Shown: positions 6,745-33,890 of the stretch, in pieces | Numbering within the stretch: the first letter of the stretch is position 1 | Layout of the letters: each line of letters begins with the position of its first letter | From: a virus | DNA length: 64,000 nucleotides | Reading direction: 5' to 3' (one strand) | IMG/VR virus record: IMGVR_UViG_3300001533_001295 | Location: 20,773-84,772 of that record | The notes under the pieces: generated by a model | Seen by the model: the letters and a program-made list of their open reading frames with translations, nothing else | Told to the model about the DNA's origin: nothing | The model's database searches: none | Program-made: the position numbers and the translations under genes

Positions 6745-7414
6745 AAGATTAGTTAACCCTAATCTTTTCAGCTATACCGACGCACCTGATTCGCCCAAGA
6801 TTAAATTATCGGCACTGACCGACTCAGCAAATAAGAAAACAGCCAGCGATTTTTTAAATTTTACAACTAACCCATCAGCCTACTTATCTGAGCTAGGCAG
6901 AAGTCTAACTTCTTCTGGCGGCAAAGGTTTAACCGACAGTTCTCTTTTCTTGCCGGCGGCACTACTGGCTGGTTCAGCTGGTTTAGGCGGAGGTTACTAC
7001 GCTACTAATAAGTTACTTAATAAACTTAGGGAAACCGCAAGAAATAAAGAACTAGCTAAAGCTGAGCTAGAGTTTGAAGCAGCTTTAGCTGAGTCGGCTA
7101 AAACAGCTAGTAATAAAAATTGTCTCTTTGATAACACGTCTAGGATAGTTAACGTTTTAGATAAGGTAGCAGACGGTGGTTTAGTGTCTCCAGGCGTCTC
7201 GCATGCTGCTAGGAACATAGTAGGTTTGTATTTAACTGCAGCGTTGGCTTTAGGTGGAGTTGGAGCTTATGGAAGCTACAAATCCAACAAGGCTAAATCT
7301 AAATCAAAAGCTATTGAGCGTGCTCAATTAGAGCGACTATCTCAAATGAGTCAAAGACAGTATCCAGCTATATACGCAGAGCCAGGTGTATCCGCAGATG
7401 ATTCAGAACAATGA
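6449..7414 (+). CDS. glycine-zipper putative virion protein with K-x-A motifs
   Basis: Three Gly-zipper helices, each preceded by KTA/KVA motifs; directly upstream of the RNAP gene. Confidence 0.6.
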   Translation: MKTELLNSIKKKTANTASFENAVSQIQNLRSSAMPEERQKFLLNLLLATGAAGAGIAGLSHLQSLNKRQTSAKKPHISEVRVELFGQEKDKRQKSNRRKRLVNPNLFSYTDAPDSPKIKLSALTDSANKKTASDFLNFTTNPSAYLSELGRSLTSSGGKGLTDSSLFLPAALLAGSAGLGGGYYATNKLLNKLRETARNKELAKAELEFEAALAESAKTASNKNCLFDNTSRIVNVLDKVADGGLVSPGVSHAARNIVGLYLTAALALGGVGAYGSYKSNKAKSKSKAIERAQLERLSQMSQRQYPAIYAEPGVSADDSEQ

Positions 7415-10400
7415 TAACGAAGACATCGCGCTTACTTTAAACCAACCTGCTAAGCCTTTAGTTAGTTATCGAGCTGTAGACGACGCAGAAGTTCTGCGTG
7501 AAAACGTATATCAAAAAGCGTTAAATGCGGCTAAGTCTATACAGCCGCTGCAGTACGGTAAGTTTCAGCTAGCTCTAACTGACGTAGACTATGAGGACTC
7601 TCCTCAACCTACCAAGAGAGATCAGACCACAGCTTTACTTGGGCGTAATAGTATAACTCGCCGGCTGAGAGGTACTTGGTCTCTGCAAGATACTCAGACC
7701 GGTGAGACGGTTGATCAGCGTAAGCAGATCATAGCTAACGTGCCGCACGTTTTACATGACGGAAGTATCGTCATGCGCGGTACTAGGTATGCCTCCGGTA
7801 TTCAACAGCGTCTTAGGCCTGGCGTTTATACTCGTGTACGTAAAAGCGGTGAGCTAGAAGCTCACGTTAACGCTAAGGTAGGTACAGGTCCCAGCCACAG
7901 GTACGTCTTGGAGCCTGAGACAGGTAGGTTTTTACTTAATATTGGTAACAGTAAGATACCTTTGTCTAATTTATTAGACGTACTAGGAGTAGATAGAAAA
8001 CGTGTCGAAGACGTCTGGGGCAAAGAACTCACCGCCGTAAACTACGGTAAGCAGGATCCTAAAGCCTTAAATAAACTGTACGACAAGTTTGTCCCTAATA
8101 GGCTTAGAAACAAAGACGACCTCAGTAACTCTGAGGCTATGCGTCAGAAAATTTCTGATGTATTTAATAACATCGGCTTAGATCAAGGTGTATTGAGCCA
8201 GACTGTTAATTTACCTACAGAGCATCTAAGCCCTGAGGTAATTCTAGCTGCGACGAGTAAGATACTTGAGATATCTAAGCAGCAAGAAGATAAGGACGAC
8301 CGAGATCATCCAGGCTTCGCAACATTCCACGATCTATCTGATCTGATCGCTGAAAGAATTAGCAACGATCACGGCGGCGTCAGACGCCAGTTGATGTACA
8401 AGATAGCTCAAAAAGGCAACTTAGCTAATCTTCCGTCAGGTTATCTAGACAAGCAAATAAATAGCGTAATATTCGGTTCAGGTCTTGCTGCAGCTGTAGA
8501 AGAAACCAACCCGGCCGACATACTAGATAGAATAACTAAAGTAACTAGGTACGGTGAGGGTGGTTTACCCTCTACGCAATCAACTCCGTCTGAAGCTAGA
8601 AATGTAAATCTAGGTCAGTTCGGCTTCATAGATCCTGTGCGAACGGCTGAGTCGCTTAGAGTTGGTGTAGACGTTAACGTAGCAAATCCTACGTTCATAG
8701 GTAGCGATAATAAGCTCTACGCTAATTTTATAAACCTAGGAAACGGTCAAACAGAGTTACACTCGCCTGACGAGTTATTTAACTCTTCTTTAGTTATAGG
8801 TCCAAGCTCTATAGAAGGTTGGGACTCGGCTGTAGTAGGCGGCAAATTACAACTTGTAAGGCAGGGGGAAGGTGATTTTAAGTTACCGTCCTATGACAAC
8901 GCCTTTAATATATTAAGCCAAATACTTCCTATGAAGTCGGCGTCGTTCGCTCAGCGTCTATCTATGGGCGCTAGAATGTCCCAGCAGGCTTTACCTGTGG
9001 AAGGAGCTGAAGCTCCTTTAGTGCAAGCAGCTGTGCCAGGAACAGGTGGCGCGGAGAGTTATGAGTCTAGGATAGGTACCAAGCTGGGAGCAATCAGGGC
9101 TAAAGATAGAGGCCGGGTTCTAGCTGTAACTGATGACTATATTGAGGTCGCTTACCCAAACGGCAGTGTAGTAAAAGAAGATTTAGACTACTACAGACCT
9201 ACCGCTCGTAAGTCGTTCATACACAACACGCCGCTAGTTCAACCGGGCGATATTGTTGAGCCAGGCCAGATTTTAGCTAAGAGTAATTTTACAGACGACC
9301 AAGGCTCTTTGGCTTTTGGTAAGAACGTTAGAACAGCTCTTATACCTTGGGGTGAAAACTGGGAAGACGCTATCATCTTTAGCCAGCGCATGGCTAACAG
9401 TATGAGGTTAAACCAAGCTTATAAAAGCCATTTTGAAATAACAGATAAAGACGAGGTAGGTAAAAAGCCGTTCGTATCTGTTTTTGCTTCAAAGTACAAC
9501 AAAGACATTTTAGACACGCTTGACGATAATGGCGTAGTCAAGCCGGGCACGGTAGTTAAAAAAGGCGATCCGCTTATTTTAGCTATACGTGAGACAGACA
9601 TGACTGGCAACCGAGTACATAAAAAGCAAGCTAAGTCTTACTCAGATGCTAGTGTTACTTGGGACCACAACCATGAGGGCTTGGTAACACATATAGCTGA
9701 CTCAGGCAAAGGCTTCAGCGTTATGGTGACTACCAGTAAGCCACTTGAAGAAGCAGACAAGATTGCAGGCTTATACGGTAATAAAGGTACGGTTAGAATT
9801 CTGCCTGATGCTCAGATGCCTGTGGCTGAGGATGGTGAAATTATAGACGCGCTCATATCTCCTTTGGCGGTTATATCTAGAGGTAACTCGTCTTTCCCTT
9901 TAACGATGCTACTAGGTAAAGTCGCAGCCAAGACTGGTAAGTCTTATAAAATTGAAGACTTTACCGGCCAAGACTTCACTCAACTGGTCAAAGAAGAGTT
10001 AGGTAAAAATAAGCTTAACGCTACAGAGACGGTAACCGACCCTAACACAGGCAGGCAGATACCTGGTGTTCTTGTTGGTAATTCTTATTTAATGGCCTTA
10101 CATCACTCAGCTGAGGCTAAGTCGTCAGCTAGAAGTATTGGCTCTTACTCGGCTTCCGGAGAACCAGCTAGAGGCACTAAAGGTCAGGCTAAGCGAGTAT
10201 CGGGCCAGGAACTAGCTGCACATATGGCTCAAGGAGCTTATAAGTACAGCAGAGAATCTTCGTTGCTTAGAGGAAGACGTAACGATGACTTCTGGTCGGC
10301 TTATATGGGTGGTCACAATATAGAATTGCCTCAAGTTAATGAAGTATATGAGGGATTTTTAGACCGACTTAAAGGTATAGGTATAAACCCGGTAAAGTCA

Positions 10401-11804
10401 GGCGAAGACACTCAGCTTATGGCTATGACCGACAACGATGTTAGAGAGCTGGCCGGCAGTAAACGAGTGACAGTACCTGACACTGTTAACATGTTTAAGG
10501 ATCTTCAGCCTATAAAAGGCGGTTTAATGGATCCTGCGATATTTGGTGAAGGCGATAAATTTGCGGCTTTTGATTTACCTGAAGCTCTACCTAATCCAGT
10601 ATTTGAAGAGCCTTTGCGCAAGCTACTCGGTGTAACTGAGAAGCAATTTAGAGGCATTATTTCGGGTACAGAAGAGTTAGGTAAGTTTGGCTCAGGACCA
10701 GATGCTCTACATAGCTACCTTAAGAACTTAAACGTAGACGATGAGATTAAGCGCGCTAGACAAGAAATAGCTGGCACTAAGAAAACAGCTAGAGACGCAG
10801 CTGTTAAGCGCTTGCGTTATCTAAAGATGTTCGAGCGCACTGGCGTTAAGCCTGAAGAGCTTATGGTAAGTGTTGTGCCGGTTATTCCTCCCAATCTTAG
10901 ACCTATATCTCGCATAGGTAATAAGGGATCGGTAGCTGTCTCTGACTCTAACTATTTATATAGAGAGTTAATGTTAGCTGCTGAGAACTTAGGAGAGATG
11001 AAACAGTTTTCATCTGACTTAAGTAAGGAGCGTTTGGCTACGTATGACGCACATAAAGCTCTAGTTGGTTTAACTGATCCTCAAAGCCGAGAGCTGAGGT
11101 CTAAAAAAGTAAAAGGTCTTATTAAAGAGATAATCGGAGACTCACCTAAGACCGGCATAGTTCAGCGCCGGCTTTTATCTACCAACGTCGACAACGTCAC
11201 TAGAGGCGTCTTGGTGCCTGACACTAGTCTTAAAATGGGTCAGGTAGGTGTTCCGGTAACTCAGGCCTTAACCTCTTACTCTAATTATGTAATTAGAGAT
11301 TTAGTTCAAAGCGGTATGCCTAGGGTAGAAGCTTTAGAGTCAGTTAAGAATAAATCTAAGGAAGCTATACAGGCTCTACAGAGAGTGATTAAAGATAGAC
11401 CGGTTGTTCTTAGTAGAGCGCCAGTACTACATAGGTACGGTAATATCGCCCTAGAGCCAGTCTTGGTGTCGGGCGATGGTATCAGGTTAAACCCTTTCGT
11501 ATATAAAGGACTCGGAGCTGACAACGACGGTGACGCTGTTAATATGCACGTCCCTCACAGCGACGAAGTCGTAAGAGAGGTTAGACAAAGACTCTCTCCG
11601 GCCAGTATGCTTATCCACCACCAGGATAAAAAGACTCCGGCTTTTTCTGTTAGCCAAGATCATCTTCTTGGGCTATATTACGCTTCTACAAAACGCAATG
11701 ACCGCAAACGAACTAAATATTTTAGTTCCGTTACTGACGCGGTTGCCGCATTTAAGCGCGGCGAGCTAAACGTAGATGATCCTGTTAAGATCAGCGAATC
11801 TTAA
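7386..11804 (+). CDS. rpoBC: DNA-directed RNA polymerase, fused beta subunit + N-terminal half of beta' (likely start ATG 7398)
   Basis: beta motifs GFIDPVRTAE, MGARMSQQALP, NWEDAI, DKIAGLYGNKG, YLMALHH; beta' motifs GGLMDPAIFG, VPVIPPNLRP, LSRAPVLHR and catalytic GADNDGD (about 11514-11534). Confidence 0.92.
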   Translation: MYPQMIQNNDNEDIALTLNQPAKPLVSYRAVDDAEVLRENVYQKALNAAKSIQPLQYGKFQLALTDVDYEDSPQPTKRDQTTALLGRNSITRRLRGTWSLQDTQTGETVDQRKQIIANVPHVLHDGSIVMRGTRYASGIQQRLRPGVYTRVRKSGELEAHVNAKVGTGPSHRYVLEPETGRFLLNIGNSKIPLSNLLDVLGVDRKRVEDVWGKELTAVNYGKQDPKALNKLYDKFVPNRLRNKDDLSNSEAMRQKISDVFNNIGLDQGVLSQTVNLPTEHLSPEVILAATSKILEISKQQEDKDDRDHPGFATFHDLSDLIAERISNDHGGVRRQLMYKIAQKGNLANLPSGYLDKQINSVIFGSGLAAAVEETNPADILDRITKVTRYGEGGLPSTQSTPSEARNVNLGQFGFIDPVRTAESLRVGVDVNVANPTFIGSDNKLYANFINLGNGQTELHSPDELFNSSLVIGPSSIEGWDSAVVGGKLQLVRQGEGDFKLPSYDNAFNILSQILPMKSASFAQRLSMGARMSQQALPVEGAEAPLVQAAVPGTGGAESYESRIGTKLGAIRAKDRGRVLAVTDDYIEVAYPNGSVVKEDLDYYRPTARKSFIHNTPLVQPGDIVEPGQILAKSNFTDDQGSLAFGKNVRTALIPWGENWEDAIIFSQRMANSMRLNQAYKSHFEITDKDEVGKKPFVSVFASKYNKDILDTLDDNGVVKPGTVVKKGDPLILAIRETDMTGNRVHKKQAKSYSDASVTWDHNHEGLVTHIADSGKGFSVMVTTSKPLEEADKIAGLYGNKGTVRILPDAQMPVAEDGEIIDALISPLAVISRGNSSFPLTMLLGKVAAKTGKSYKIEDFTGQDFTQLVKEELGKNKLNATETVTDPNTGRQIPGVLVGNSYLMALHHSAEAKSSARSIGSYSASGEPARGTKGQAKRVSGQELAAHMAQGAYKYSRESSLLRGRRNDDFWSAYMGGHNIELPQVNEVYEGFLDRLKGIGINPVKSGEDTQLMAMTDNDVRELAGSKRVTVPDTVNMFKDLQPIKGGLMDPAIFGEGDKFAAFDLPEALPNPVFEEPLRKLLGVTEKQFRGIISGTEELGKFGSGPDALHSYLKNLNVDDEIKRARQEIAGTKKTARDAAVKRLRYLKMFERTGVKPEELMVSVVPVIPPNLRPISRIGNKGSVAVSDSNYLYRELMLAAENLGEMKQFSSDLSKERLATYDAHKALVGLTDPQSRELRSKKVKGLIKEIIGDSPKTGIVQRRLLSTNVDNVTRGVLVPDTSLKMGQVGVPVTQALTSYSNYVIRDLVQSGMPRVEALESVKNKSKEAIQALQRVIKDRPVVLSRAPVLHRYGNIALEPVLVSGDGIRLNPFVYKGLGADNDGDAVNMHVPHSDEVVREVRQRLSPASMLIHHQDKKTPAFSVSQDHLLGLYYASTKRNDRKRTKYFSSVTDAVAAFKRGELNVDDPVKISES

Positions 11805-12159: not shown

Positions 12160-12705
12160 ATGGATCAAAAACGACTGCAGAAGTTGCTGTCTAATTTGTG
12201 GTCTAAATCAGCGTCAACGCAACCTGTGTCGGACGTATACATTATTAAGGGTAACCCGGAAGTAGATACCGGTAATGCGCATAATTACGCTAGTTTCTAC
12301 GAAGACGTAGCTAAAGTTGTTGGCGAAAACGGGTTTACATACAGCTTTGACGATGGGCTGGGCGGCACGTTACCGCCTGGCGGTAAATTATGGATCGGCC
12401 ATAGTCGCGGTGGAGATCGGCTGAGATTTGCTCCTAAAGAAGTTGCTACGCTCAAGTTAGATGACTTTGAACCAGCCGAGGCTAAAGAGAAACAACGGTT
12501 GGCTTATGAGCAGTTATTTAATACGCGAGGATATAAAAATATAGCCGACGTGCCGTTGCATCTGCGACCTCAGCCAGGGCCGGAACACTATACATTAAAT
12601 GAAGAGGCTAAGGCGGCTATTGTCGCTAAACTTCGAGAGTTACGTAAAGTTCGTATTACTTCACGACTTCGGTCGTTGTTAGGTCGATCTCACTTGTTTC
12701 CTTAA
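12160..12705 (+). CDS. putative alpha/beta-hydrolase-like protein
   Basis: Nucleophile elbow WIGHSRGG (GxSxG), later His (PEHY); N-terminal KSA motif. Confidence 0.5.
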   Translation: MDQKRLQKLLSNLWSKSASTQPVSDVYIIKGNPEVDTGNAHNYASFYEDVAKVVGENGFTYSFDDGLGGTLPPGGKLWIGHSRGGDRLRFAPKEVATLKLDDFEPAEAKEKQRLAYEQLFNTRGYKNIADVPLHLRPQPGPEHYTLNEEAKAAIVAKLRELRKVRITSRLRSLLGRSHLFP

Positions 12706-12721
12706 ACGTGGAGAAGGTTCT

Positions 12722-13102
12722 ATGCCAGCTTCTGGATTTTATTGGGCTAAGCACAAAAACTCTGAAAATTACGACATTGTCGTTTATTACAACGAAGACG
12801 AGGGTACGCTCAAGTTTGTTAAGTCGTCTAACAATAAGGTTATTAAGTTTAATCCTGCTACAAGTAAGACCTACACTTTAGGCGAATCAATTCCTGATGA
12901 CGTAGATAAAGTCACTGAGAGCCTGTTGGAAGAGAAGTCAGAGTTTTATATAGAGACAGGCGCTGGTCTAGGTAAGCATGTATTCAGGGTTGTCAGGATA
13001 CTGTCAGACGGAAGCATACATGTTTTTGGTAGCTACTCCAGTGAGACCGCAGCTATACTAGTAAAAAACAGACTCAACTCAGGTAAACTTCTAGGTTGGT
13101 AG
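12722..13102 (+). CDS. hypothetical protein
   Basis: ORF with GGAGAAGG RBS. Confidence 0.65.
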   Translation: MPASGFYWAKHKNSENYDIVVYYNEDEGTLKFVKSSNNKVIKFNPATSKTYTLGESIPDDVDKVTESLLEEKSEFYIETGAGLGKHVFRVVRILSDGSIHVFGSYSSETAAILVKNRLNSGKLLGW

Positions 13103-13328: not shown

Positions 13329-13724
13329 ATGTATCTACTAAAATTAATAGTAATTTTAGTTTTATCAGTAGATACATCTATCTCTAGTACCGATAACTAC
13401 AGGCGTATGGAAGCGGACAAGCCTGTAGCCGGTCTGTATACTATGCTGGTCAACCGCAGGCACAGCCACAATTTACCTGAGTTAAGATACTGCGCTGACT
13501 TAAGCTCTGAGTGTTATTTTAATAACCAGTTTCAAAGGCGTTACGGCTTAGGTGAGTACACTCGTCAAACCGGTTGCTTCGTGGCAAATGACGGCATGTT
13601 CGCTATAAATGTCTTTAGCAAATTATTTAGCGAGGGACCTGGCTACTATCTAACACTTAACACAAATATAACTAAATTTGGTGCGCACTATGATGGGCAT
13701 TTTTGGACCGTAATATTCGAGTAG
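13329..13724 (+). CDS. secreted CAP/SCP-like protein (degenerate)
   Basis: N-terminal hydrophobic signal; VNRRHSHNLPEL and GAHYDGHFWTVIF resemble the ends of a CAP/SCP domain; conserved His absent. Confidence 0.4.
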   Translation: MYLLKLIVILVLSVDTSISSTDNYRRMEADKPVAGLYTMLVNRRHSHNLPELRYCADLSSECYFNNQFQRRYGLGEYTRQTGCFVANDGMFAINVFSKLFSEGPGYYLTLNTNITKFGAHYDGHFWTVIFE

Positions 13725-13733
13725 GAGCGGGAC

Positions 13734-13931: not shown

Positions 13932-13970
13932 TGTAAGCCTCTGTAGCTCAGCGGATAGAGCAGCGGCCTT

Positions 13971-24651: not shown

Positions 24652-24660
24652 ATTTACACA

Positions 24661-25327: not shown

Positions 25328-25329
25328 CG

Positions 25330-26442: not shown

Positions 26443-26472
26443 TCGTTGCTTCTTCTAAGGTAGCGCGCTTGC

Positions 26473-27031: not shown

Positions 27032-27036
27032 TTAGG

Positions 27037-27228: not shown

Positions 27229-27420
27229 ATGTTCGGCGTAAGGATAACACTAGACTGCGTAATCTACGGCACTTTAGAATCATATAGATACACCGGTCCC
27301 TCTGTAGTACGCGCTAGCGCCGCCTACTTAGACTCGATTAAAGAAGGGGGTTATGTGCAGATAATTCATGAGGTTAAACATAAATCAAAACGAACTGTAA
27401 ATTTAACTGATTATACGTAG
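27229..27420 (+). CDS. RxTGP-array protein
   Basis: RYTGP; LDSIKEG. Confidence 0.7.
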   Translation: MFGVRITLDCVIYGTLESYRYTGPSVVRASAAYLDSIKEGGYVQIIHEVKHKSKRTVNLTDYT

Positions 27421-27476
27421 TGGCACTTACTTAGACTCGATTAAAGAAGGGGGTTATGTGCAGATAATTCATGAGG
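27325..27476 (+). repeat. perfect 49-bp direct repeat (27325-27373 and 27428-27476)
   Basis: TACTTAGACTCGATTAAAGAAGGGGGTTATGTGCAGATAATTCATGAGG occurs twice. Confidence 0.9.
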
Positions 27477-27597
27477 ACCACAATCCAATATATGTTAATA
27501 GTCCGTTTAAGATGCAAACTCAGTTTAGTACGGACTTTACTATTGAAGAAATTATAAAAAGTGATGAAGTAGCGAAGTTTATGTCACGGTTTGAGTA

Positions 27598-27867
27598 ATG
27601 TTCAAATCAATAATTGCAGGTAAACGTGTAGCAGTTATTAAAGTTAGAGTTAGCTTGCGGGAAGTTAATTATTACGAATATAAGTTTAATAATTGGAAAA
27701 ACACGGGTATAAATTTTTCTAGGGATACGGGAGCTGCTTTAATGAAGCGATCTTCATCGTATTTTTGTTCCAGCGGTAGAACACTTAAAACGGTGTTTGT
27801 TTGTATGACGTTAGGAAATGGAGATAACGTTGACAAAGTCGTACAGGTGTTCCCGTCGTATGATTGA
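27598..27867 (+). CDS. RxTGP-array protein (variant)
   Basis: RDTGA. Confidence 0.6.
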   Translation: MFKSIIAGKRVAVIKVRVSLREVNYYEYKFNNWKNTGINFSRDTGAALMKRSSSYFCSSGRTLKTVFVCMTLGNGDNVDKVVQVFPSYD

Positions 27868-27894
27868 TAATCGTCTCAACGTAGAAATTCATCC

Positions 27895-28128
27895 ATGCTA
27901 GATGATATTGACAGCGACTCAGTTAATGTAGTCGTTACTGTAACGCGGTCTGGCGTTATTGACTTCTTAGTCAGAAAAAGATACACCGGACCTTACGCTA
28001 TAATTAAAGATAGCATATGGTTAATTGAGTCTCACAGAGGATCTATGTGTGACTTTACTACTGTAATTATCACTGCTAGCGATAGGCGGCGGCGCTCAGC
28101 AGGTTTCGCGAGTGAGTGTCTTGATTAA
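27895..28128 (+). CDS. RxTGP-array protein
   Basis: RYTGP. Confidence 0.7.
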   Translation: MLDDIDSDSVNVVVTVTRSGVIDFLVRKRYTGPYAIIKDSIWLIESHRGSMCDFTTVIITASDRRRRSAGFASECLD

Positions 28129-28333
28129 GGATAATCGTAATTTGGTCTACGTAATTGTTAAAGCTAACAATAAATTTAGATTTAACCTTTGCAGGTACAC
28201 AGGTGTCTGTTGTAACACACCTACGTATGCGCTACTTATGCGCCTTAACGTTAATGATGTGTACGTAGATAACATTTGCGTAAAGTACATTTCGGCGTTA
28301 ACGCACAAGATAGAAAAATCAACTCATAGCTGA
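28112..28333 (+). CDS. RxTGP-array protein (variant)
   Basis: RYTGV. Confidence 0.65.
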   Translation: MSVLIKDNRNLVYVIVKANNKFRFNLCRYTGVCCNTPTYALLMRLNVNDVYVDNICVKYISALTHKIEKSTHS

Positions 28334-28334
28334 A

Positions 28335-28598
28335 GTGTTATATATGAAATTAACGCCGTTTATAGTAGATATTTCTCCACAGCAAAAGGCTAAAAACAAG
28401 CACGTAATATTTAACTACGATAACTACAATCAATTTAGATATACTGGAGCTTGCTTAAGCACAAAAACCGACGTAGTCTTGAGAACGCCAACTTTAATAA
28501 CACCAGAGCGACCGAAAGAACTTAGACTTAAACTAATTATTGTAGAATATAAAAAAACGCAGATTTTACCAGTTGCTTATCCTTGGACTCTCGAATAA
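28335..28598 (+). CDS. RxTGP-array protein (variant)
   Basis: RYTGA. Confidence 0.65.
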   Translation: MLYMKLTPFIVDISPQQKAKNKHVIFNYDNYNQFRYTGACLSTKTDVVLRTPTLITPERPKELRLKLIIVEYKKTQILPVAYPWTLE

Positions 28599-28806
28599 CG
28601 CTAATGTAATGACGTTAGTTGTTGAAATTAGTAACACGCTACGCATATCGTATTGCGTAGATAAAAAAACTAATTTAAAAATTATCACAGAATACAGATT
28701 TACTGGGGCTGCGTTTGTAGTTCGCGGTATTTCTTATTTAAACAAAAAAAACACTTTATACTTAATACTTGACGTACGCAACAGAAAGGTAGCTGGTCTT
28801 GTGTAA
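28573..28806 (+). CDS. RxTGP-array protein (variant)
   Basis: RFTGA. Confidence 0.65.
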   Translation: MLILGLSNNANVMTLVVEISNTLRISYCVDKKTNLKIITEYRFTGAAFVVRGISYLNKKNTLYLILDVRNRKVAGLV

Positions 28807-28810
28807 GCCA

Positions 28811-28957
28811 ATGGTAATAGTAACGATTCATTACTTAGAATATAAAATTAACGCAACTTATCCGCACAGATTGCGTGTATTGTGTGCAGCTTATGAACGT
28901 ACGACTTACGGAAATTTACGCCATTATGTTAGAGATACCGGGTTATTTCTTGTTTAA
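28811..28957 (+). CDS. RxTGP-array protein, truncated variant (48 aa, not in ORF track)
   Basis: MVIVTIHYLEY...HYVRDTGLFLV-stop. Confidence 0.5.
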   Translation: MVIVTIHYLEYKINATYPHRLRVLCAAYERTTYGNLRHYVRDTGLFLV

Positions 28958-28960
28958 ACG

Positions 28961-29170
28961 ATGTGTAAGGTATTTAGTATGAATGAATTTGACGTTTTAA
29001 GCGTCGATATTTTTAGTGTCGATTATTTTATTTACGGAGATTACAACAAATACAGACACACCGGCCCCTCTGTAATTAAGAAACATGTAGTAGCTTTAGA
29101 TAAGTATGTAGCCCATCCACGCATACCAGCCAGGATTGATGCGTCTAAAAAAATTACTGATTTTAACTAA
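28961..29170 (+). CDS. RxTGP-array protein
   Basis: RHTGP. Confidence 0.7.
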   Translation: MCKVFSMNEFDVLSVDIFSVDYFIYGDYNKYRHTGPSVIKKHVVALDKYVAHPRIPARIDASKKITDFN

Positions 29171-29172
29171 GT

Positions 29173-29400
29173 ATGAAAAATATCAGAGTAACGGTAGGCA
29201 TCGATGCTAGAAAAATAGCCCACAACACAAGCATACATTTTTGTGTTTATTTTATTTACGTAAACTACGGCAACAAATACGACCGGTTTACCGGTCCTTG
29301 CGCGTCTTTTCAAGATGACACTGTCTCGATCAACAACACCGAATTAGACTTAAAGAAAAAGACAGAACGCAGTTACTTAAATTATTTTTACCGCAGATAG
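29173..29400 (+). CDS. RxTGP-array protein
   Basis: RFTGP. Confidence 0.7.
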   Translation: MKNIRVTVGIDARKIAHNTSIHFCVYFIYVNYGNKYDRFTGPCASFQDDTVSINNTELDLKKKTERSYLNYFYRR

Positions 29401-29406
29401 TAACTA

Positions 29407-29649
29407 TTAAAAAGACTTGACCTCGTTTTTATTTAAATCAACATCAGTGTTGTTGACTGAGTTACCTAAATTAGAGCAAGAGCCAAGTATAGTTATTACG
29501 CCTACGACAACTGTAACCCAAGCAGCTACTGTAGAAGGCTTGAGTACGTCTTTACCTTCTCCAGGTTCGTTTAAGTAATCTCCACCAACTACTTTGTCTA
29601 TCTTATTTACGTTGTTGATGTTTATTTTAGTGATCTTATCTCTTCGCAT
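29407..29649 (-). CDS. single-pass membrane protein
   Basis: Hydrophobic VAAWVTVVVGVITILG; last gene of a three-gene minus-strand operon. Confidence 0.6.
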   Translation of the reverse strand: MRRDKITKININNVNKIDKVVGGDYLNEPGEGKDVLKPSTVAAWVTVVVGVITILGSCSNLGNSVNNTDVDLNKNEVKSF

Positions 29650-29650
29650 A

Positions 29651-29953
29651 TCAGTCTACTTTATTATTAGTTTCTCCACCTAGATTACCTATAGAGTTTA
29701 CTCGGTCTATATCTATGTTGACGTTGGACTTGTTACTAATGATTTGTACTGAGTGAATTAAATTCTCATGCCTAGTACACAGGTGCTCAAACTTACTTTC
29801 TAACTTACCTATATCAGCTACACACCTATCTATGTTTTGTGCGTGAAATCTCATGTTAGCTTTAAGGTTAGTGATGTCTGCGTATATAGCTGCAAACTCT
29901 CCTCTAAGCTTATCTAACCTGTCTATGAGTTCTACGTATCTAGTGACGTCCAC
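29651..29953 (-). CDS. coiled-coil protein
   Basis: Heptad pattern; AAGG RBS. Confidence 0.6.
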   Translation of the reverse strand: MDVTRYVELIDRLDKLRGEFAAIYADITNLKANMRFHAQNIDRCVADIGKLESKFEHLCTRHENLIHSVQIISNKSNVNIDIDRVNSIGNLGGETNNKVD

Positions 29954-29966
29954 GACTAAACCTTAA

Positions 29967-30614
29967 CTAGCTAGAGCATAGTAAATAATGTTTTCCGTCA
30001 AACATATATTTATGTACGTGCGTGTGTATCTTACGTAGCTCATTATTACTTAAACCAACCTCCAATGTTAATTCTGCGTCATGTCTACAACTGGGTATAG
30101 CTAAAATTAGGTATAATTCTTTTATACTGTCCTCACTCAAAAACGAATTAACTTCAGACCCTACCAACTCTTCACACACCTTATTAAACTGTTCGGCAAA
30201 TTCTTGTGTCGAAAAAATTACATTTAAATTCTCGTCTATGATGATGAACTTTAAATGTGCTTCTTTTATGCCGTAGAGCGTAGTTATTGCTCGCTGGTTA
30301 GATCCATCCGCATCTGGGATGTAGCTTTCGGTTAAACCATCTATAGCTTTGTCTAAACTATCCTCTATCTTTTTTATGCGTAAATCTTCAAACACCATAA
30401 ACACACACATAAAAGCCAGAGTAGACGAGGCCACGATCGTTATAGTTATCACTAAGCTGTTGTTTTGATTTAACTCTTGCTTAGTAACCGTGTCCAAGCT
30501 AACTTCTGCTGCGTAATTAATCTTGTAGTCGAGATTAAACAACGTAATAAATAGAATACTTATGTATACTATCGTTGTAGGTATTAAGTATTTATCGAAT
30601 CCTAAAGTTGTCAT
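29967..30614 (-). CDS. two-TM membrane protein with C-terminal PAS-like domain
   Basis: Two hydrophobic helices, then FIIIDENLNVIFSTQEFAEQFNKVCEELVGSEVNSFL (PAS N-terminal pattern); no kinase domain. Confidence 0.6.
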   Translation of the reverse strand: MTTLGFDKYLIPTTIVYISILFITLFNLDYKINYAAEVSLDTVTKQELNQNNSLVITITIVASSTLAFMCVFMVFEDLRIKKIEDSLDKAIDGLTESYIPDADGSNQRAITTLYGIKEAHLKFIIIDENLNVIFSTQEFAEQFNKVCEELVGSEVNSFLSEDSIKELYLILAIPSCRHDAELTLEVGLSNNELRKIHTHVHKYMFDGKHYLLCSS

Positions 30615-30735
30615 AACTAACTGCTCAAGCTTATCTTATTGTTAACAGGGTTGGTTTTCGCACCGAATTCAATTACCATTGTTTGATGGCTTTACGCCGA
30701 CAATTGAAACTTACTCTATTCTAGGTACAAGTAGC

Positions 30736-31329
30736 ATGTCTGACGAATTAGACGCTGTCCTTAACTATATTAGCTCTAAATTAAATAAGAGCAGCGCTAT
30801 TCCAGCAGAAGAATTAGCGGGTGCGGCGCAGCAGATTCCAGGCCAAGAACCTCCTATGGATCCTGCTGCAGGCGGAGCTCCGCCAGTAGATCCCGCTACT
30901 GGTATGCCTATGGATCCGGCCATGATGGATCCGGCCATGATGGATCCGGCCATGATGGATCCGGCTATGGCTGGCGGACCGCCTATGGATCCTGCGGACG
31001 ATCCTATCTTAGGTGAGCTATTCGGTAAGTTAGATTTAGTAGTAAAGAAGAACTCACAGATCTTAACTCTCGTAGCTTCTATTGCAGAGGCTCTGGGAGT
31101 TCAGCCTAGCATTGCCGAGCTTCTTGAAGCTGGCGAGGACGTGGTAGATGAGAACGCCATGAAGCAGGCCAGCGTTCCAGAAGGTTACGTCGAAGTGCCT
31201 TACGGTTACTCAGACGGCAAACCTAGTCACGTCAGCGATACGGTTGAAGACGTTAAGAACAGTCAGCATGAGAAGCTGTCCTCGTCTGCGGCTGTATTCA
31301 AGCGTTATCTAGCTACGAAAAACAAGTAA
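30736..31329 (+). CDS. acidic Pro/Met-rich putative head protein
   Basis: MDPA repeats, KSS and KQA motifs; ATG 30736 preferred over TTG 30679. Confidence 0.6.
   Translation: MSDELDAVLNYISSKLNKSSAIPAEELAGAAQQIPGQEPPMDPAAGGAPPVDPATGMPMDPAMMDPAMMDPAMMDPAMAGGPPMDPADDPILGELFGKLDLVVKKNSQILTLVASIAEALGVQPSIAELLEAGEDVVDENAMKQASVPEGYVEVPYGYSDGKPSHVSDTVEDVKNSQHEKLSSSAAVFKRYLATKNK
30910..30969 (+). repeat. 15-bp coding tandem repeat x4 (MDPAM)
   Basis: ATGGATCCGGCCATG three times plus ATGGATCCGGCTATG. Confidence 0.9.
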
Positions 31330-31333: not shown

Positions 31334-31579
31334 GTGAAAAATAATTTATCAGCTGGCATTTTCTCTTTAGGCAGCGATCACGGTAAAGTAATATCTGGCG
31401 ATGTTATCGTGATCTTCGACCAGTATGGGTCGCCTTTGGTAGGCGTAGATAAAGTAGCAAACAAGCTAACTCTTATCTGCACCCACGATAAGCCTGATGA
31501 AATGCGTCAGTTTTTAGCTAGGCATAACATACCAACTAATGTACCTAATGTAACTTCGGTTAAGATACCTCATGGCTGA
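31334..31579 (+). CDS. hypothetical protein
   Basis: Overlaps the start of the RNAP beta'-C gene. Confidence 0.6.
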   Translation: MKNNLSAGIFSLGSDHGKVISGDVIVIFDQYGSPLVGVDKVANKLTLICTHDKPDEMRQFLARHNIPTNVPNVTSVKIPHG

Positions 31580-33890
31580 TCTAACGTTTGGGCAATTAAT
31601 TTTATCTAAAATTTTGCCGCCGGACGTTTATAGGCCGGGGCAATCTATAGATAAAAAATCTATAAATACTATTCTAGAAGACGTAGCTAGAAAGTATCCC
31701 GAACGTTACGAGGACATATCTTTCCAGCTACTTCAGCTAGGTAAAGACAGCGGTATAGCTCAAGGCGGCGCCAGCTTTGATATAGATGATCTTCTAACAC
31801 CTCCGAAGGCTAAAATTAGGAGAGATAAATTAAAAGACAAAATCAAGCTAGTATTAGAGACAGCTCCACCTGAAGCTAGAAATCAGCTGATAGTTGATAT
31901 GCTTCAAAAAGCCAGAGATACTGACGTAGGTGAAGTTCACTCTGAGGCTGAGCAGCTCAAAAATAATTTAGCTATGCAGCTGAAAGGAGCTGGCCGAGGT
32001 AACCCTGTCAATTTAGCTAGATTAATAGCTAGCGATCTAATTTATTCGGACTCAGAAGGAAGTCCTATACCTGTACCTATTCTGCGTAGCTACAGCCAAG
32101 GTTTGACGCCCGGCGAGCATCTCTCCAGTGTGTTTAGTTCTAGGGGAGGTTTGATAGTTACCAAGCTAGGAGTAGGTGAGTCCGGGTATCTATCTAAGAT
32201 GCTATCAGCAGGGGCTCACAGGCTGGCTGTGACCGACGTAGACGCCCCTGAAGATAGGCAGTGGCTAGCTAGCGCTAAAGGCTTGCCTGTAGATACCACT
32301 GACAACGACAACGTAGGATCCCTGCTGGCTTACGATGCAGGCCCTTATAAGAGGAACACGGTACTTACGCCTAAGATACTAGAAGATCTTAAAGATAAAG
32401 GCTACGACCAAATAGCTGTTAGAAGTCCTTTGACGACTACTGAGCCGGAAGGTGGCGTGTACGCTAGAGATGTTGGTTTAGATGAAAACCATAAACTAGT
32501 AGCTGTTGGCTCAATACCAGGAATACTAGCTGCTTCTGCTTTATCTGAGCCTTTAACACAAGGAGCGCTCAGCTGCTTATCAGTTGGTACTTTAGTCAGA
32601 ATGGCGGACAAGTCTGAAAAACCTATTGAAGAAGTTGATATAGGGGAGTGGGTACTGGGCGCAGACGAGTTGGGAAGAGTGTTCCCTACACTTGTCACAA
32701 ATATATGGGATCAAGGCAAGCAGCCGGTATATAAGTACACTTTTTCTAACTTACCCAACTTAGCGCCAGTTGAAGTAGAATGTACCGAAGAGCATGTCGT
32801 ACTTTTATCGGACGGCATGAACAATTCTAAAGAGCCTATCGGTCGTCGCTGCTCTAATAAGACTAACGATATTTGCGCTGTTTACGTAAGTAAAACCGAC
32901 AAAGCTTACAGCGACTGCTGCGCACCGCTTAGCTGCGAGTATGTGGGTGAGCGGCAGTGCTACGACATTGAGGTGTCTAATCCGTCTTCGCTATTCGTGC
33001 TAGCTAGTGGCTTAGTAGTTAGTAACTCGAAGCACGGTGGAGCTACAGCTGGCGGAAACATATCCGGCTTTGCTCTTATAGAGAAGCTAGTTAATACACC
33101 TAAAGAGTTTAGAGAAGCAGCTACTTATGCGTCTAAAGACGGCCAGGTTTCTGCGGTTAAACCTGCGCCGCAAGGTGGTAATTATGTGATTATCAGCGGA
33201 GAGAAGCATTACATACCTGCTTCTGCTAATATAAATGTTAAGCTCGGACAGTCAGTTGAAGCTGGCGACAGACTCAGCTCTGGTCCAATTCACCCGCATT
33301 TAGCTGTCAAGTACAAAGGCTTAGGCGAAGGAGCTCGGCAGGTTACAAGTCAAATCGTTGAATCTATGCGAGATAGCGGTCTTAAAGTTCACCGCAGAAA
33401 TGTCGAGCTTGTAGTCAGAGGGCTTCTCGACCGTGTACGCCTAACGTCTGAATACGGCGATTACGTTCCTGATGACGTAGTGCCTTACAGCCGTATAGAG
33501 AGTTCTTATCAGCCAAGGCATGGGTTTAAACGCCTACCATCTGCTCAAGCAGCCAATAAGTATCTAGAAACTCCTACACTGCATTACACAATTGGAACTA
33601 GAATTACTCCTTCGGTTATAAAGAATTTAAATCGATTTAAGATTGACAAAGTAGACGTACATGATGAACCGCCGCCATTTGAACCAGAAGTGGTCCGTGC
33701 GGTAGATTTATTACAGACGGATCCAGATTGGCTCACTAGGCATTACGGTACAGGACTTCAAAAAGGTTTACTCAAAGCTGTCCATGAAGGCGACGTATCT
33801 TCTACAGATAGTACAAGTTTTGTTCCGGCTAGGGCTAAAGCTGTAGGTTTTGGTGACAATGAGCCTTTTAAGCTAAAACCACAGGTATAA
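31572..33890 (+). CDS. rpoC: RNA polymerase beta' C-terminal subunit with mini-intein
   Basis: SYSQGLTPGE, bridge helix SRGGLIVTKLGVGESGYLSK, VRSPLT, trigger loop ALSEPLTQGALS|SKHGG, HRRNVELVVR. Confidence 0.9.
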   Translation: MADLTFGQLILSKILPPDVYRPGQSIDKKSINTILEDVARKYPERYEDISFQLLQLGKDSGIAQGGASFDIDDLLTPPKAKIRRDKLKDKIKLVLETAPPEARNQLIVDMLQKARDTDVGEVHSEAEQLKNNLAMQLKGAGRGNPVNLARLIASDLIYSDSEGSPIPVPILRSYSQGLTPGEHLSSVFSSRGGLIVTKLGVGESGYLSKMLSAGAHRLAVTDVDAPEDRQWLASAKGLPVDTTDNDNVGSLLAYDAGPYKRNTVLTPKILEDLKDKGYDQIAVRSPLTTTEPEGGVYARDVGLDENHKLVAVGSIPGILAASALSEPLTQGALSCLSVGTLVRMADKSEKPIEEVDIGEWVLGADELGRVFPTLVTNIWDQGKQPVYKYTFSNLPNLAPVEVECTEEHVVLLSDGMNNSKEPIGRRCSNKTNDICAVYVSKTDKAYSDCCAPLSCEYVGERQCYDIEVSNPSSLFVLASGLVVSNSKHGGATAGGNISGFALIEKLVNTPKEFREAATYASKDGQVSAVKPAPQGGNYVIISGEKHYIPASANINVKLGQSVEAGDRLSSGPIHPHLAVKYKGLGEGARQVTSQIVESMRDSGLKVHRRNVELVVRGLLDRVRLTSEYGDYVPDDVVPYSRIESSYQPRHGFKRLPSAQAANKYLETPTLHYTIGTRITPSVIKNLNRFKIDKVDVHDEPPPFEPEVVRAVDLLQTDPDWLTRHYGTGLQKGLLKAVHEGDVSSTDSTSFVPARAKAVGFGDNEPFKLKPQV
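32574..33026 (+). mobile_element. mini-intein (151 aa) in the RNAP trigger loop
   Basis: CLSVGTLV...ECTEEHVV...CYDIEV...LVVSN|S; no endonuclease motifs. Confidence 0.9.

What the first reader, a model, noticed from the sequence alone, without database searches (positions are those of the whole stretch)
7386..33890. Cysteine-free two-chain RNA polymerase: candidate virion-packaged, ejected multisubunit RNAP
Seen: I find no Cys in the 1472-aa beta/beta'-N chain and none in either extein of the beta'-C chain (about 2090 residues in total). All Cys in the latter lie inside the intein. Both canonical beta' zinc sites are gone: the N-terminal zinc-binding domain is deleted after GGLMDPAIFG, and the cellular VRS..C....VC..CYG pattern reads VRSPLTTTEPEGGVYARDVG. 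Neighbouring enzymes (RNR, ORF 1153) contain many Cys. Known: the N4 virion RNAP is Cys-free and is injected across the cell envelope. Inference: this polymerase is packaged and ejected, and it converged on the same constraint from a cellular-type RNAP scaffold.
Basis: partly seen in the sequence, partly recalled or inferred. Interest (0 to 1): 0.88.

Follow-up and report, generated by a model that had tools for sequence, protein, structure and literature searches.

The report
Cysteine-free two-chain phage RNA polymerase
A large uncultured phage encodes a bacterial-type RNA polymerase in two chains that has lost every cysteine and both zinc sites, as its many relatives have, which fits an enzyme carried in the virus particle and delivered into the host with the DNA.

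Summary
The 1472-aa beta+beta'-N chain has 0 Cys. The 772-aa beta'-C chain has 8 Cys, all inside a 151-aa mini-intein in the trigger loop, so the exteins (621 aa) have none. The beta' zinc ribbon is deleted and all four ligands of the second zinc site are replaced. Other ORFs of the contig carry 1.26% Cys, giving P about 3e-12.

The trait is family-wide. In 81 IMG/VR loci, 51 of 59 intein-free beta-beta'N genes have 0 Cys: 12 Cys in 86,949 residues, against 1.12% in flanking ORFs. Only Cys is depleted; Met is not. Basal relatives (Arash, Vibrio phage D69) keep just the four Zn2 cysteines.

Packaging is not shown for this phage. It rests on published virion proteomics of Arash, on the gene's place between portal and capsid genes, and on the same signature in T7 gp15/gp16, crAss-like gp66 and N4-like vRNAPs. 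The phiKZ virion RNAP is not Cys-free, so the signature is not universal.

The scan has reported this trait on at least six other genomes. I class it as a new variant of a known kind.

The parts
7386..11804 (+). Gene for the beta + beta'-N fusion chain (1472 aa, 0 Cys). It holds both double-psi barrels and the catalytic loop GADNDGD at nt 11514-11534.
   Evidence: Pfam Rpb2_6 E 1.5e-42 and Rpb1_2 E 5.5e-17; Rpb1_1 at 34.6 bits is below its cut-off of 39.7. Cys count. The three Asp (D1379, D1381, D1383) are invariant in 28 homologues. The best solved relatives are bacterial beta (E 1.4e-120) and beta'/gamma (E about 1e-86).
10518..10571 (+). Junction where the cellular beta' N-terminal Cys4 zinc ribbon is deleted (GGLMDPAIFG-EG-DKFAAF).
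   Evidence: Alignment with two cellular beta' proteins and six other phage homologues; all seven phage sequences lack the roughly 30-residue ribbon. Coordinates.
31572..33890 (+). Gene for the beta'-C chain precursor (772 aa). The exteins are residues 1-334 and 486-772 (621 aa, 0 Cys).
   Evidence: Pfam Rpb1_5 E 2.3e-10. AlphaFold model with mean pLDDT 79.8. The best Foldseek matches are E. coli RNAP beta' chains, E 1.7e-27, prob 1.00, with low TM (0.37) as expected for a multi-domain chain. Cys counts.
32229..32477 (+). Region equivalent to the second beta' zinc site. All four Cys ligands are replaced (VTDVDAPED ... VRSPLTTTEPEGGVYARDVG).
   Evidence: Alignment. The model is confident here: mean pLDDT 87-95 in the 10-residue blocks covering residues 211-300.
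32574..33026 (+). Mini-intein of 151 aa that holds all 8 Cys of the ORF. It sits in the trigger loop between ...SEPLTQGALS and SKHGG..., and the +1 nucleophile is Ser, not Cys.
   Evidence: Pfam Hint E 4.9e-07, 30.0 bits against a cut-off of 29.7. Boundaries come from intein-free homologues. The stretch is predicted as all-beta.
4262..7414 (+). Cys-poor ORFs just upstream of the polymerase gene (284, 137, 195 and 321 aa with 0, 1, 1 and 1 Cys). The last one overlaps the polymerase start. They are candidate co-packaged proteins.
   Evidence: Counts. No Pfam or PHROG match for ORFs 4262-5116 and 6449-7414; no Pfam match for ORF 5529-6116; ORF 5116-5529 was not scanned. Homologues of 4262-5116 occur in 18 loci with 0.37% Cys, and of 6449-7414 in 5 loci with 0.12%.
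12160..13102 (+). Two Cys-free ORFs (181 and 126 aa) just downstream of the polymerase gene.
   Evidence: no Pfam match for the first.
13329..30614 (.). Inserted cassette that separates the two polymerase genes: HNH endonucleases, RNR small and large chains with inteins, and a low-GC stretch of small ORFs. It has normal Cys content and is not part of the enzyme.
   Evidence: In most relatives where both genes lie in the locus, beta'-C starts about 1 kb after beta-beta'N; here the gap is 19.8 kb. Seven ORFs of the cassette hold 52 Cys in 2861 aa. Pfam matches.
30679..31329 (+). Cys-free ORF (216 aa) just upstream of beta'-C.
   Evidence: Homologues in 3 loci, all with 0 Cys. No Pfam match.

Best explanation
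This is the phage's own bacterial-type multisubunit RNA polymerase. It is made of two chains, beta fused to the first half of beta', and the second half of beta', which matures by splicing out a trigger-loop mini-intein. Every cysteine has been purged by selection, including both zinc sites. The most likely reason is that the enzyme is a virion component: it is made late, packed into the head, and delivered into the host with the DNA to transcribe early genes. Free thiols are a liability outside the reducing cytoplasm, both in the capsid and on passage through the envelope and periplasm, where disulfide-forming enzymes act. Shown here: the enzyme's identity and architecture, the Cys and Zn loss, its family-wide conservation, and its specificity to Cys. 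Inferred: packaging, ejection and the selective agent.
For: 1. Selection, not chance. The window has 0 Cys in 2093 residues against 1.26% in the rest of the contig (P 2.9e-12).
2. Family-wide. In IMG/VR, 51 of 59 intein-free beta-beta'N genes have 0 Cys (12 Cys in 86,949 aa) and 39 of 48 intein-free beta'-C genes have 0, against 4439 Cys in 395,044 flank residues (1.12%). In the protein collection, 38 of 45 and 62 of 63 have 0 Cys, at 33-91% identity.
3. Inteins keep their Cys. Where inteins interrupt the genes, Cys sits mostly in the inserts; the Cys that fall in aligned stretches lie mostly at alignment ends. Here the intein's +1 residue is Ser.
4. Basal clades keep exactly the four Zn2 ligands and almost nothing else: Arash gp216 has 4 and gp206 has 1 in 1525 aa; D69 has 4 and 2 in 1527 aa; L062, L071 and L097 keep the four.
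5. Only Cys is depleted: the family/flank ratio is 0.03 for Cys and 1.13 for Met. This points to thiol chemistry rather than general oxidation.
6. Arash virions, purified on a sucrose gradient: Gp206 is the most-detected protein (128 unique peptides, 3516 spectra), Gp216 has 40 peptides and 1210 spectra, and sigma Gp10 has 24 and 467. RNR Gp27 has only 11 unique peptides (PMC10585845, passages).
7. Gene position. The order portal, beta-beta'N, beta'-C, structural gene, major capsid gene is shared with Arash.
8. The same signature occurs in proteins annotated as virion-internal or detected by MS in virions: T7 gp15 0/747, gp16 0/1318 and gp14 1/196, against T7 RNAP 12/883; crAss-like phi14:2 gp66 2/2180 and gp65 1/1421, against 0.9-1.75% in five of its enzymes; Schitoviridae vRNAPs at 0.00075% (PMC11445570).
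9. The portal (6 Cys in 625 aa), the capsid-protein homologue (2 in 314) and the gp222-like protein (11 in 480) of this contig do carry Cys. The polymerase is therefore under a stricter constraint than shell proteins.
Against: There are no virion data for this phage or its near clade. Arash is only 29% identical. Its preparation yielded 116 proteins, including RNR, ligases and helicases, and its authors offer carry-over as an alternative. The phiKZ virion RNAP, which is injected according to the review PMC7598289 (passage), has 16 Cys in 2614 aa (0.61%), against 25 in 2430 aa for five of its non-virion subunits. Ejection therefore does not require a Cys-free enzyme. Arash's capsid and tail proteins are also Cys-free, so the signature marks virion residence more clearly than ejection. 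Five of five near-complete relatives have only one beta' active-site locus, so the same enzyme would also have to serve later transcription, or the host enzyme would. No sigma-like gene was found in the contig or in those five genomes, so how promoters are recognised is unknown. The host and its envelope type are unknown.
Confidence: 0.62

Rival explanations
1. The polymerase is never packaged. It works only in the cytoplasm, and Cys was purged for another reason, such as independence from zinc supply or resistance to thiol-reactive host defences or oxidants during infection.
For: There is a single RNAP per genome in 5 of 5 near-complete relatives and in Arash, so the enzyme must work in the cytoplasm anyway. 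Packaging is unproven, since the Arash preparation also held clearly cytoplasmic enzymes. The phiKZ vRNAP shows that packaged RNAPs can keep Cys.
Against: Other cytoplasmic enzymes of the same phages keep normal Cys: 52 in 2861 aa in the cassette between the two genes and 1.12% in 395,044 flank residues. Met is not depleted. In Arash the two chains rank first and fifth by spectra and far above RNR by unique peptides. The genes lie in the head module.
Confidence: 0.2
2. The polymerase is packaged and stays Cys-free only because of long residence in the extracellular, oxidising particle. It is not ejected, or it plays no part in early transcription (a passive or structural passenger).
For: Non-ejected virion proteins of Arash (capsid 0/307, tail 0/283) are also Cys-free. 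In this contig 8 of 30 other large ORFs are Cys-free.
Against: A catalytically intact enzyme (invariant DxDxD; confident beta' fold) conserved across hundreds of phages would be a costly passenger. The portal and capsid-protein homologues of this contig do keep Cys. In Arash a sigma factor is co-detected.
Confidence: 0.12
3. This is a neutral by-product. Once the zinc sites were lost no Cys was functionally needed, and drift removed the rest.
For: Both zinc sites are gone in the window's clade.
Against: Drift does not hold a residue at 0.014% over 86,949 residues in lineages 33-55% identical while neighbouring genes stay at 1.12%. Clades that still have the Zn2 site are otherwise equally Cys-free, so the purge came before the Zn2 loss.
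Confidence: 0.03

Closest known systems
Salmonella phage Arash Gp206 + Gp216 (OQ632216; PMC10585845) and Vibrio phages D69/D148/D181
   Same: The same two-chain partition: beta fused to beta'-N (1525 and 1527 aa) plus a separate beta'-C (about 606 aa as annotated in Arash; 609 aa in D69). The same position after the portal gene and before the capsid gene. The zinc ribbon is absent in Arash Gp206 (D69 was not aligned). Both are nearly Cys-free. Arash has a single RNAP per genome. The Arash chains are abundant in purified virions.
   Different: Only 29% identity. Arash and D69 keep the four Zn2 cysteines, which the window's clade has replaced. They encode sigma-like factors (Pfam match in Arash; record annotation in D69), and none was found here. 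They have no intein in beta'-C, and their two genes are not separated by a 19.8-kb cassette. The Arash paper does not mention cysteine (0 occurrences).
mReC clade: multisubunit-RNAP-encoding Caudovirales (Weinheimer and Aylward 2020, PMC7481178)
   Same: Large uncultured tailed-phage contigs from IMG/VR that encode cellular-type beta and beta' detectable with standard models. Several of my related loci come from IMG samples numbered next to those of the paper's representative contigs.
   Different: Membership was not tested by phylogeny here, and the paper's supplementary lists are closed. The paper's main text has 0 occurrences of 'virion', 'cysteine', 'zinc' or 'sigma', so the trait and the packaging idea are not in it.
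N4-like (Schitoviridae) virion RNAP and ejection proteins (N4 gp50-52, DEV gp71-73; PMC11445570)
   Same: Near-total, family-wide suppression of Cys in an RNA polymerase that is packed in the capsid and ejected. A published rationale exists: passage through the periplasm, where disulfide-forming enzymes act (passages).
   Different: The N4 enzyme is a single-subunit T7-like polymerase inside a 3400-3500-aa chain of a podovirus. It is unrelated in fold to this two-barrel bacterial-type enzyme.
phiKZ / AR9-type jumbo-phage virion RNAP (PMC7598289)
   Same: A multisubunit beta/beta'-like enzyme with split subunits, found in virions and held to be injected for early transcription (passage; record notes 'structural head protein').
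   Different: phiKZ has two RNAP sets, whereas Arash and five near-complete relatives of this phage have one. The phiKZ vRNAP keeps 16 Cys in 2614 aa. phiKZ subunits are far more diverged from cellular RNAP; no phage chain appears among the 60 best solved relatives of this family's profile.
crAss-like phage phi14:2 gp66 RNAP with gp65 (NC_021806)
   Same: A large two-barrel RNAP detected by MS/MS according to the record, and almost Cys-free: 2/2180 and 1/1421. That it is ejected is recalled from Drobysheva et al. 2021, which I did not read here.
   Different: A single chain, too diverged for sequence homology with cellular beta/beta' (PMC7481178, passage).
Cyanobacterial / plastid split beta' (gamma + beta')
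   Same: The beta'-N part ends where cyanobacterial gamma ends: family profile positions 1077-1451 match gamma residues 174-555 of 624.
   Different: Cellular enzymes keep both zinc sites and do not fuse beta to gamma.

Membership tests
Bacterial-type multisubunit RNA polymerase (beta/beta') | Beta domains | tested here: met
   Rpb2_6 at E 1.5e-42, 146.5 bits against a cut-off of 23.4. The family profile matches solved bacterial beta chains at E 1.4e-120.
Bacterial-type multisubunit RNA polymerase (beta/beta') | Beta' active-site domain with three catalytic Asp | tested here: met
   Rpb1_2 at E 5.5e-17. The loop reads GADNDGD at residues 1377-1383, and D1379, D1381 and D1383 are invariant in 28 homologues.
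Bacterial-type multisubunit RNA polymerase (beta/beta') | Beta' C-terminal half with trigger loop | tested here: met
   Rpb1_5 at E 2.3e-10. The trigger-loop motif aligns with cellular beta' and is interrupted by the intein. The model matches E. coli beta' at E 1.7e-27.
Bacterial-type multisubunit RNA polymerase (beta/beta') | Two beta' zinc sites (N-terminal Cys4 ribbon; second Cys4 site) | tested here: not met
   The ribbon is deleted and all four ligands of the second site are replaced. This is a departure from cellular enzymes; the catalytic core is otherwise intact.
Bacterial-type multisubunit RNA polymerase (beta/beta') | Alpha, omega and sigma partners | tested here: inconclusive
   No Sigma70_r2 match at E <= 0.1 in the 84.8-kb contig (42% complete) or at E <= 0.01 in five near-complete relatives. 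Alpha and omega were not searched.
Virion-packaged, ejected RNA polymerase | Protein present in purified virions | not testable with these tools
   Evidence exists only for a 29%-identical relative (Arash MS), in a preparation that also held cytoplasmic enzymes.
Virion-packaged, ejected RNA polymerase | Early transcription independent of host RNAP and of new protein synthesis | not testable with these tools
   No experimental data for any member of this family were found.
Virion-packaged, ejected RNA polymerase | Gene within the late / head morphogenesis module | tested here: met
   The order portal, beta-beta'N, beta'-C, gp222-like, capsid gene is shared with Arash.
Virion-packaged, ejected RNA polymerase | Suppression of Cys relative to the phage proteome (seen in N4-like, T7 core and crAss-like proteins, but not in phiKZ) | tested here: met
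   0 in 2093 residues against 1.26%. Family at 0.014% against 1.12%. Comparators.
mReC clade (PMC7481178) | Beta and beta' on a Caudovirales contig with capsid or portal genes | tested here: met
mReC clade (PMC7481178) | Placement in the deep-branching clade of the RNAP tree | not tested
   No tree was built.
Class 1 mini-intein | Cys1, C-terminal Asn, +1 Ser/Thr/Cys, Hint fold, no endonuclease domain | tested here: met
   C335 ... N485 | S486, 151 aa. Hint at 30.0 bits against a cut-off of 29.7. Intein-free homologues close the gap exactly. The penultimate residue is Ser rather than the usual His; the motif is recalled and splicing was not tested.

The most novel reading that the evidence does not exclude
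A whole clade of 180-235-kb phages carries a single, zinc-free and cysteine-free bacterial-type RNA polymerase. It serves both as the injected early enzyme and as the later enzyme, which makes these phages independent of host RNAP with one polymerase instead of phiKZ's two. This would be a further, independent case (after N4-like, T7-core and crAss-like proteins) of the same 'no thiols' rule on ejected proteins. The rule could then be used to read the whole ejected-protein set from sequence alone; here that would be the Cys-free ORFs flanking both polymerase genes and at 49.4-59.7 kb. It would also be the first cellular-type multisubunit RNAP that folds and works without any zinc site.
Probability: 0.45. 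Interest if true: 0.75.

Novelty: new variant of a known kind. Interest (0 to 1): 0.6.

Why it matters
Both beta' zinc sites are present in every cellular beta' I aligned or counted here, and I recall them as near-universal. A large natural clade that works without them shows what the core enzyme can tolerate, and offers a thiol-free, zinc-free scaffold for biochemistry. If the packaging inference holds, these phages bring a bacterial-type polymerase with them. That bears on how they escape host transcription control and rifampicin-type inhibition. It would also extend a published rule, Cys suppression in ejected proteins of N4-like phages, to an unrelated enzyme and to contractile-tailed phages. 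The rule would then become a cheap sequence-only predictor of ejected proteins in uncultured phages. Arash is cultured, so every step can be tested.

Tried and rejected
Searches that found nothing:
- Pfam and PHROG scans of ten neighbouring ORFs gave no match. Pfam on 20 more ORFs named only enzymes of the inserted cassette and a few others.
- The ESM Atlas look-up of the conserved ORF after beta'-C (34759-37170) gave no usable hit; its Atlas model is poor (pLDDT 0.39).
- The long C-terminal extensions of some beta'-C homologues (up to 1346 aa, mostly Cys-free) are not homologous to any ORF of this contig.
- The search for related loci with the single protein found only 2 loci; the alignment query found 80.
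- BLAST of contig ORFs against Arash found only portal, both RNAP chains, a gp222-like protein and the capsid protein. Arash's sigma factors, gp217 and gp218 have no detectable counterpart here.
- Sigma70_r2 was not found in the contig or in five near-complete relatives.

Ideas rejected:
- Genome-wide Cys depletion.
- Chance.
- General oxidation sensitivity, because Met is not depleted.
- Cys-freeness as a universal property of injected multisubunit RNAPs, because phiKZ keeps Cys.

Limits of the counts:
- ORFs in loci were called crudely: longest ORF from the first ATG/GTG/TTG, with greedy removal of overlaps. Some starts are too early; four beta'-C ORFs have Cys only within their first 10 residues.
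- Loci were not de-duplicated, and some are near-identical.
- The protein-collection hits and the IMG/VR loci overlap in origin, so they are not independent samples.
- For phiKZ, gp55 was not fetched. The assignment of gp68, gp71, gp73, gp74 and gp123 to the non-virion enzyme is recalled, apart from the record's product names.
- That T7 gp14-16 and phi14:2 gp66 are ejected is recalled; the records say only 'internal virion protein' and 'MS/MS proteomics'.

Not run: complex prediction (the enzyme exceeds its size limit), read laying, the look-up of sequencing runs, the search of protein representatives, and a phylogeny to polarise the Zn2 loss. Supplementary files of PMC7481178 (mReC contig lists) and PMC10585845 were closed and may bear on clade membership and on the MS data.

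Full report
WHAT IS THERE. The window is bases 20773-84772 of an 84,772-bp IMG/VR viral contig that CheckV rates 42% complete. ORF 7386-11804 (+) encodes 1472 aa with Pfam Rpb2_6 (E 1.5e-42), Rpb1_2 (E 5.5e-17) and a sub-threshold Rpb1_1. It is therefore beta fused to the first half of beta'. ORF 31572-33890 (+) encodes 772 aa with Rpb1_5 (E 2.3e-10) and a Hint module, the second half of beta' with an intein. A profile of 28 homologues of the first chain finds bacterial beta (E 1.4e-120) and beta'/cyanobacterial gamma (E about 1e-86) as its best solved relatives, and no phage chain among the 60 listed. An AlphaFold model of the second chain (mean pLDDT 79.8) matches E. coli beta' chains (E 1.7e-27, prob 1.00, TM 0.37). 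The catalytic loop reads GADNDGD, and its three Asp are invariant in the family alignment.

THE OBSERVATION. The first chain has no Cys. The second has eight, at residues 335-463. Intein-free homologues place the intein at residues 335-485: Cys1 ... Asn, followed by Ser486, 151 aa. It lies inside the trigger loop between SEPLTQGALS and SKHGG. The exteins total 621 aa with no Cys, so the mature enzyme has 2093 residues and no thiol. Even the intein's +1 nucleophile is Ser.

In alignment with two cellular beta' proteins, the roughly 30-residue CxC...CxxC ribbon is missing between GGLMDPAIFG and DKFAAF. It is also missing in the six other phage homologues aligned, including Arash. The four ligands of the second site (cellular DC, TC, GVCxxCYG) read DA..., TT... 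and GVYARDVG. The model is confident across that region, with pLDDT 87-95.

The remaining called ORFs of the contig hold 278 Cys in 22,054 residues (1.26%), so P(0 in 2093) = 2.9e-12.

IT IS A FAMILY TRAIT.
- Protein collection, first chain. Of 120 listed hits (1436 at E <= 1e-10), 69 (P0004-P0072) are beta-beta'N fusions of this family. Of these, 45 have intein-free length (1430-1520 aa). 38 of the 45 have 0 Cys, and together they hold 16 Cys in 66,141 residues. A further 23 are longer, and their Cys cluster mostly in inserts that do not align to the window protein.
- Cellular beta'. The 38 proteins listed after the family (P0086-P0123), 8 of them named beta' by a source, carry 3-19 Cys, and 37 of the 38 carry 11 or more.
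- Protein collection, second chain. Of 119 listed homologues, 63 are 670 aa or shorter and 62 of these have 0 Cys. 27 of the 56 longer ones also have none.
- IMG/VR loci. In 81 loci with up to 10 kb of flank, 59 beta-beta'N ORFs are intein-free and full-length. 51 of them have 0 Cys, with 12 Cys in 86,949 residues (0.014%).
- IMG/VR, beta'-C. It lies in 60 of the loci, and 48 of those are intein-free. 39 have 0 Cys, with 22 Cys in 30,289 residues. Of the nine exceptions, three carry exactly the four Zn2 ligands (L062, L071, L097), and four have Cys only in the first 10 residues of a probably over-extended ORF.
- Flanks. Flanking ORFs hold 4439 Cys in 395,044 residues (1.12%).
- Other residues. 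Only Cys stands out: the family/flank ratio is 0.03 for Cys, 1.13 for Met and 0.49 for Trp, and every other residue lies between 0.79 and 1.27.
- Caveat. These samples overlap in origin and were not de-duplicated.

WHAT THE BASAL RELATIVES SHOW. The closest cultured phages are Salmonella phage Arash (29.2% identity over 96% of the first chain) and Vibrio phages D69, D181 and D148 (28.6%).
- Arash Gp206 has 1 Cys in 1525 aa. Gp216 has 4, in the spacing of the second zinc site.
- D69 has 2 Cys in 1527 aa, and 4 in its beta'-C.
- More distant single-chain beta-beta' fusions (P0073, P0076, P0078, P0085) have exactly those four Cys and no others. P0074 has them plus one more. P0077 has none.

The pattern is therefore zero Cys, or only the four Zn2 ligands. 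By parsimony (inference, no tree built) the ribbon was lost and the non-ligand Cys purged early, and the window's clade later replaced the last zinc site.

CONTEXT. BLAST against Arash finds, in order along the contig, the portal (upstream of the window), beta-beta'N, beta'-C, a gp222-like structural protein (56657-58099) and the major capsid protein (60572-61516). This is the Arash order. In most relatives where both genes lie in the locus, beta'-C begins about 1 kb after beta-beta'N. Here 19.8 kb intervene, holding HNH endonucleases, RNR chains with inteins and a low-GC stretch of small ORFs, with normal Cys (52 in 2861 aa). I read this as an insertion into an older Cys-poor block. The ORFs next to both polymerase genes hold 9 Cys in 2627 aa. 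The contig's portal (6 in 625), capsid homologue (2 in 314) and gp222-like protein (11 in 480) do contain Cys, so the polymerase is cleaner than bona fide shell proteins. Arash and five of five near-complete relatives (216-235 kb, CheckV 98-100%) have a single beta' active-site locus. This is unlike phiKZ's two enzymes. Arash has two sigma-like genes. The contig and the five relatives show none with Sigma70_r2.

WHY CYS-FREE: THE EVIDENCE FOR PACKAGING. In the Arash paper (PMC10585845; passages of methods and results read) virions were purified on a 0-45% sucrose gradient and pelleted. Gp206 was the most-detected protein (128 unique peptides, 3516 spectra). Gp216 had 40 and 1210, the adjacent Gp217 38 and 1148, Gp218 36 and 1149, and sigma Gp10 24 and 467. 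RNR Gp27 had 11 unique peptides. In all 116 proteins were detected, and the authors name both early transcription and carry-over as explanations. The paper does not mention cysteine.

For N4-like phages, PMC11445570 (passages) reports 0.00075% Cys in vRNAP homologues against 0.865% across 191 proteomes. It cites the idea that passage through the periplasm, with its disulfide-forming enzymes, selects against Cys.

My own counts on public records:

| Protein(s) | Cys / residues |
|---|---|
| T7 internal core proteins gp14, gp15, gp16 | 1/196, 0/747, 0/1318 |
| T7 RNAP | 12/883 |
| crAss-like phi14:2 gp66, gp65 | 2/2180, 1/1421 |
| Five phi14:2 enzymes | 0.9-1.75% |
| phiKZ virion RNAP (gp80, gp149, gp178, gp180; noted 'structural head protein' in the record) | 16/2614 |
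| Five phiKZ non-virion subunits | 25/2430 |

The signature is thus common among ejected proteins but not obligatory.

MECHANISM, AS FAR AS IT CAN BE STATED.
- Shown: a complete catalytic core in two chains; an intein that must splice to restore the trigger loop; no thiol and no zinc ligand; strong, Cys-specific purifying selection across the family.
- Inferred: the enzyme is made late with the head proteins and packed into the capsid, in Arash perhaps with a sigma factor. It leaves with the DNA and starts early transcription without the host enzyme. Thiols are selected against because they would form disulfides or adducts in the particle or in the periplasm. Zinc sites go too, because a Cys4-Zn site is the same liability and would need re-metallation after transit.

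I put this at about 0.6. The main rival (about 0.2) is a purely cytoplasmic enzyme purged of Cys for another reason. Against it stand the normal Cys content of every other enzyme class in these genomes and the Arash proteomics.

WHAT IS KNOWN AND WHAT IS NEW. Already in print:
- The phage clade with cellular-type beta/beta' (PMC7481178). Its main text has 0 occurrences of virion, cysteine, zinc or sigma; section 6 was read in full.
- The abundance of the Arash chains in virions.
- The Cys rule for N4-like ejection proteins.

I did not find the Cys-free, zinc-free state of this RNAP family, or its use as an argument for packaging, in the papers read or in the full-text searches. The jumbo-phage RNAP review has 0 occurrences of cysteine or zinc. 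Subscription-only papers are outside the library.

This scan has itself reported the same trait on at least six other genomes (e1-5771240, e1-5662068, e1-5483585, e1-5403706, e1-5903078, e1-5323853). I saw those notes after forming my reading, and they agree with it. This window adds another member, with a trigger-loop mini-intein and a 19.8-kb cassette splitting the two genes. The comparator counts are my own and I do not know whether the earlier reports include them: phiKZ as a counter-example, Met not depleted, and 'zero or exactly the four Zn2 ligands'.

VERDICT. I class it as a new variant of a known kind, with interest 0.6.

Noticed in passing
window 19596-23129 and 17645-19585: The RNR large chain (1177 aa) carries two intein-like inserts. 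I judged this by eye from the translation and did not analyse it. The RNR small chain is 646 aa, and its Ribonuc_red_sm match is split into two stretches, the best at residues 415-603. This suggests an insert there too.
   Followed up: partly
window 43441-45663: A subtilase (Peptidase_S8, E 3.5e-31) is interrupted by an intein with a LAGLIDADG domain and has 20 Cys. A protease in the head region could be the prohead protease. An earlier scan note (e1-6124259) flags the same gene.
   Followed up: partly
window 42336-42962: A stand-alone 208-aa ORF with a Hint_2 domain (E 1e-08).
   Followed up: no
window 13977-14474 and 14879-15496: Two HNH_3 endonuclease ORFs lie just after the polymerase gene. 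Earlier scan notes read them as sitting in group I introns of tRNA genes. ARAGORN on 12000-32000 found only one intact tRNA, tRNA-Leu(TAA) at 12001-12074.
   Followed up: partly
window 23130-29650: A stretch of about 6.5 kb has low GC (0.35-0.39 against about 0.43) and no ORF of 150 aa or more, only small ORFs of 80-100 aa. Earlier scan notes describe an array of tiny paralogues here.
   Followed up: no
window 49395-59742 and 62997-64000: A run of large Cys-free ORFs (310, 472, 177, 329, 439, 374, 140 and over 334 aa) with no Pfam or PHROG match for the six of them scanned, interleaved with Cys-containing ones. With ORF 4262-5116 and one ORF upstream of the window, 8 of 30 other ORFs of 250 aa or more in the contig have 0 Cys. 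These are candidates for other virion-internal or ejected proteins.
   Followed up: partly
proteins P0161, P0162, P0166, P0193, P0176 and others: Many beta'-C homologues carry Cys-free C-terminal extensions of 500-700 aa that match nothing in this contig. Some (P0190, P0200, P0220) have kinase-like AAA Pfam domains fused. P0049 has a Nudix domain and a 5-Cys cluster at its N-terminus, ahead of beta.
   Followed up: no
window 34759-37170: An 803-aa ORF (3 Cys) follows beta'-C and has homologues in 51 of 81 related loci, at 0.93% Cys. It has no family or Atlas match. It is a conserved partner of unknown role.
   Followed up: partly
phiKZ NC_004629, gp181 (189334-196047): The tail-associated lysin of phiKZ has 1 Cys in 2237 aa, far below the phage's virion RNAP. 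Even in phiKZ some delivered proteins follow the Cys-poor pattern.
   Followed up: no
window 37838-38293: A dCMP/cytidine deaminase ORF (E 9.7e-15, 7 Cys) lies between the polymerase block and the head genes.
   Followed up: no
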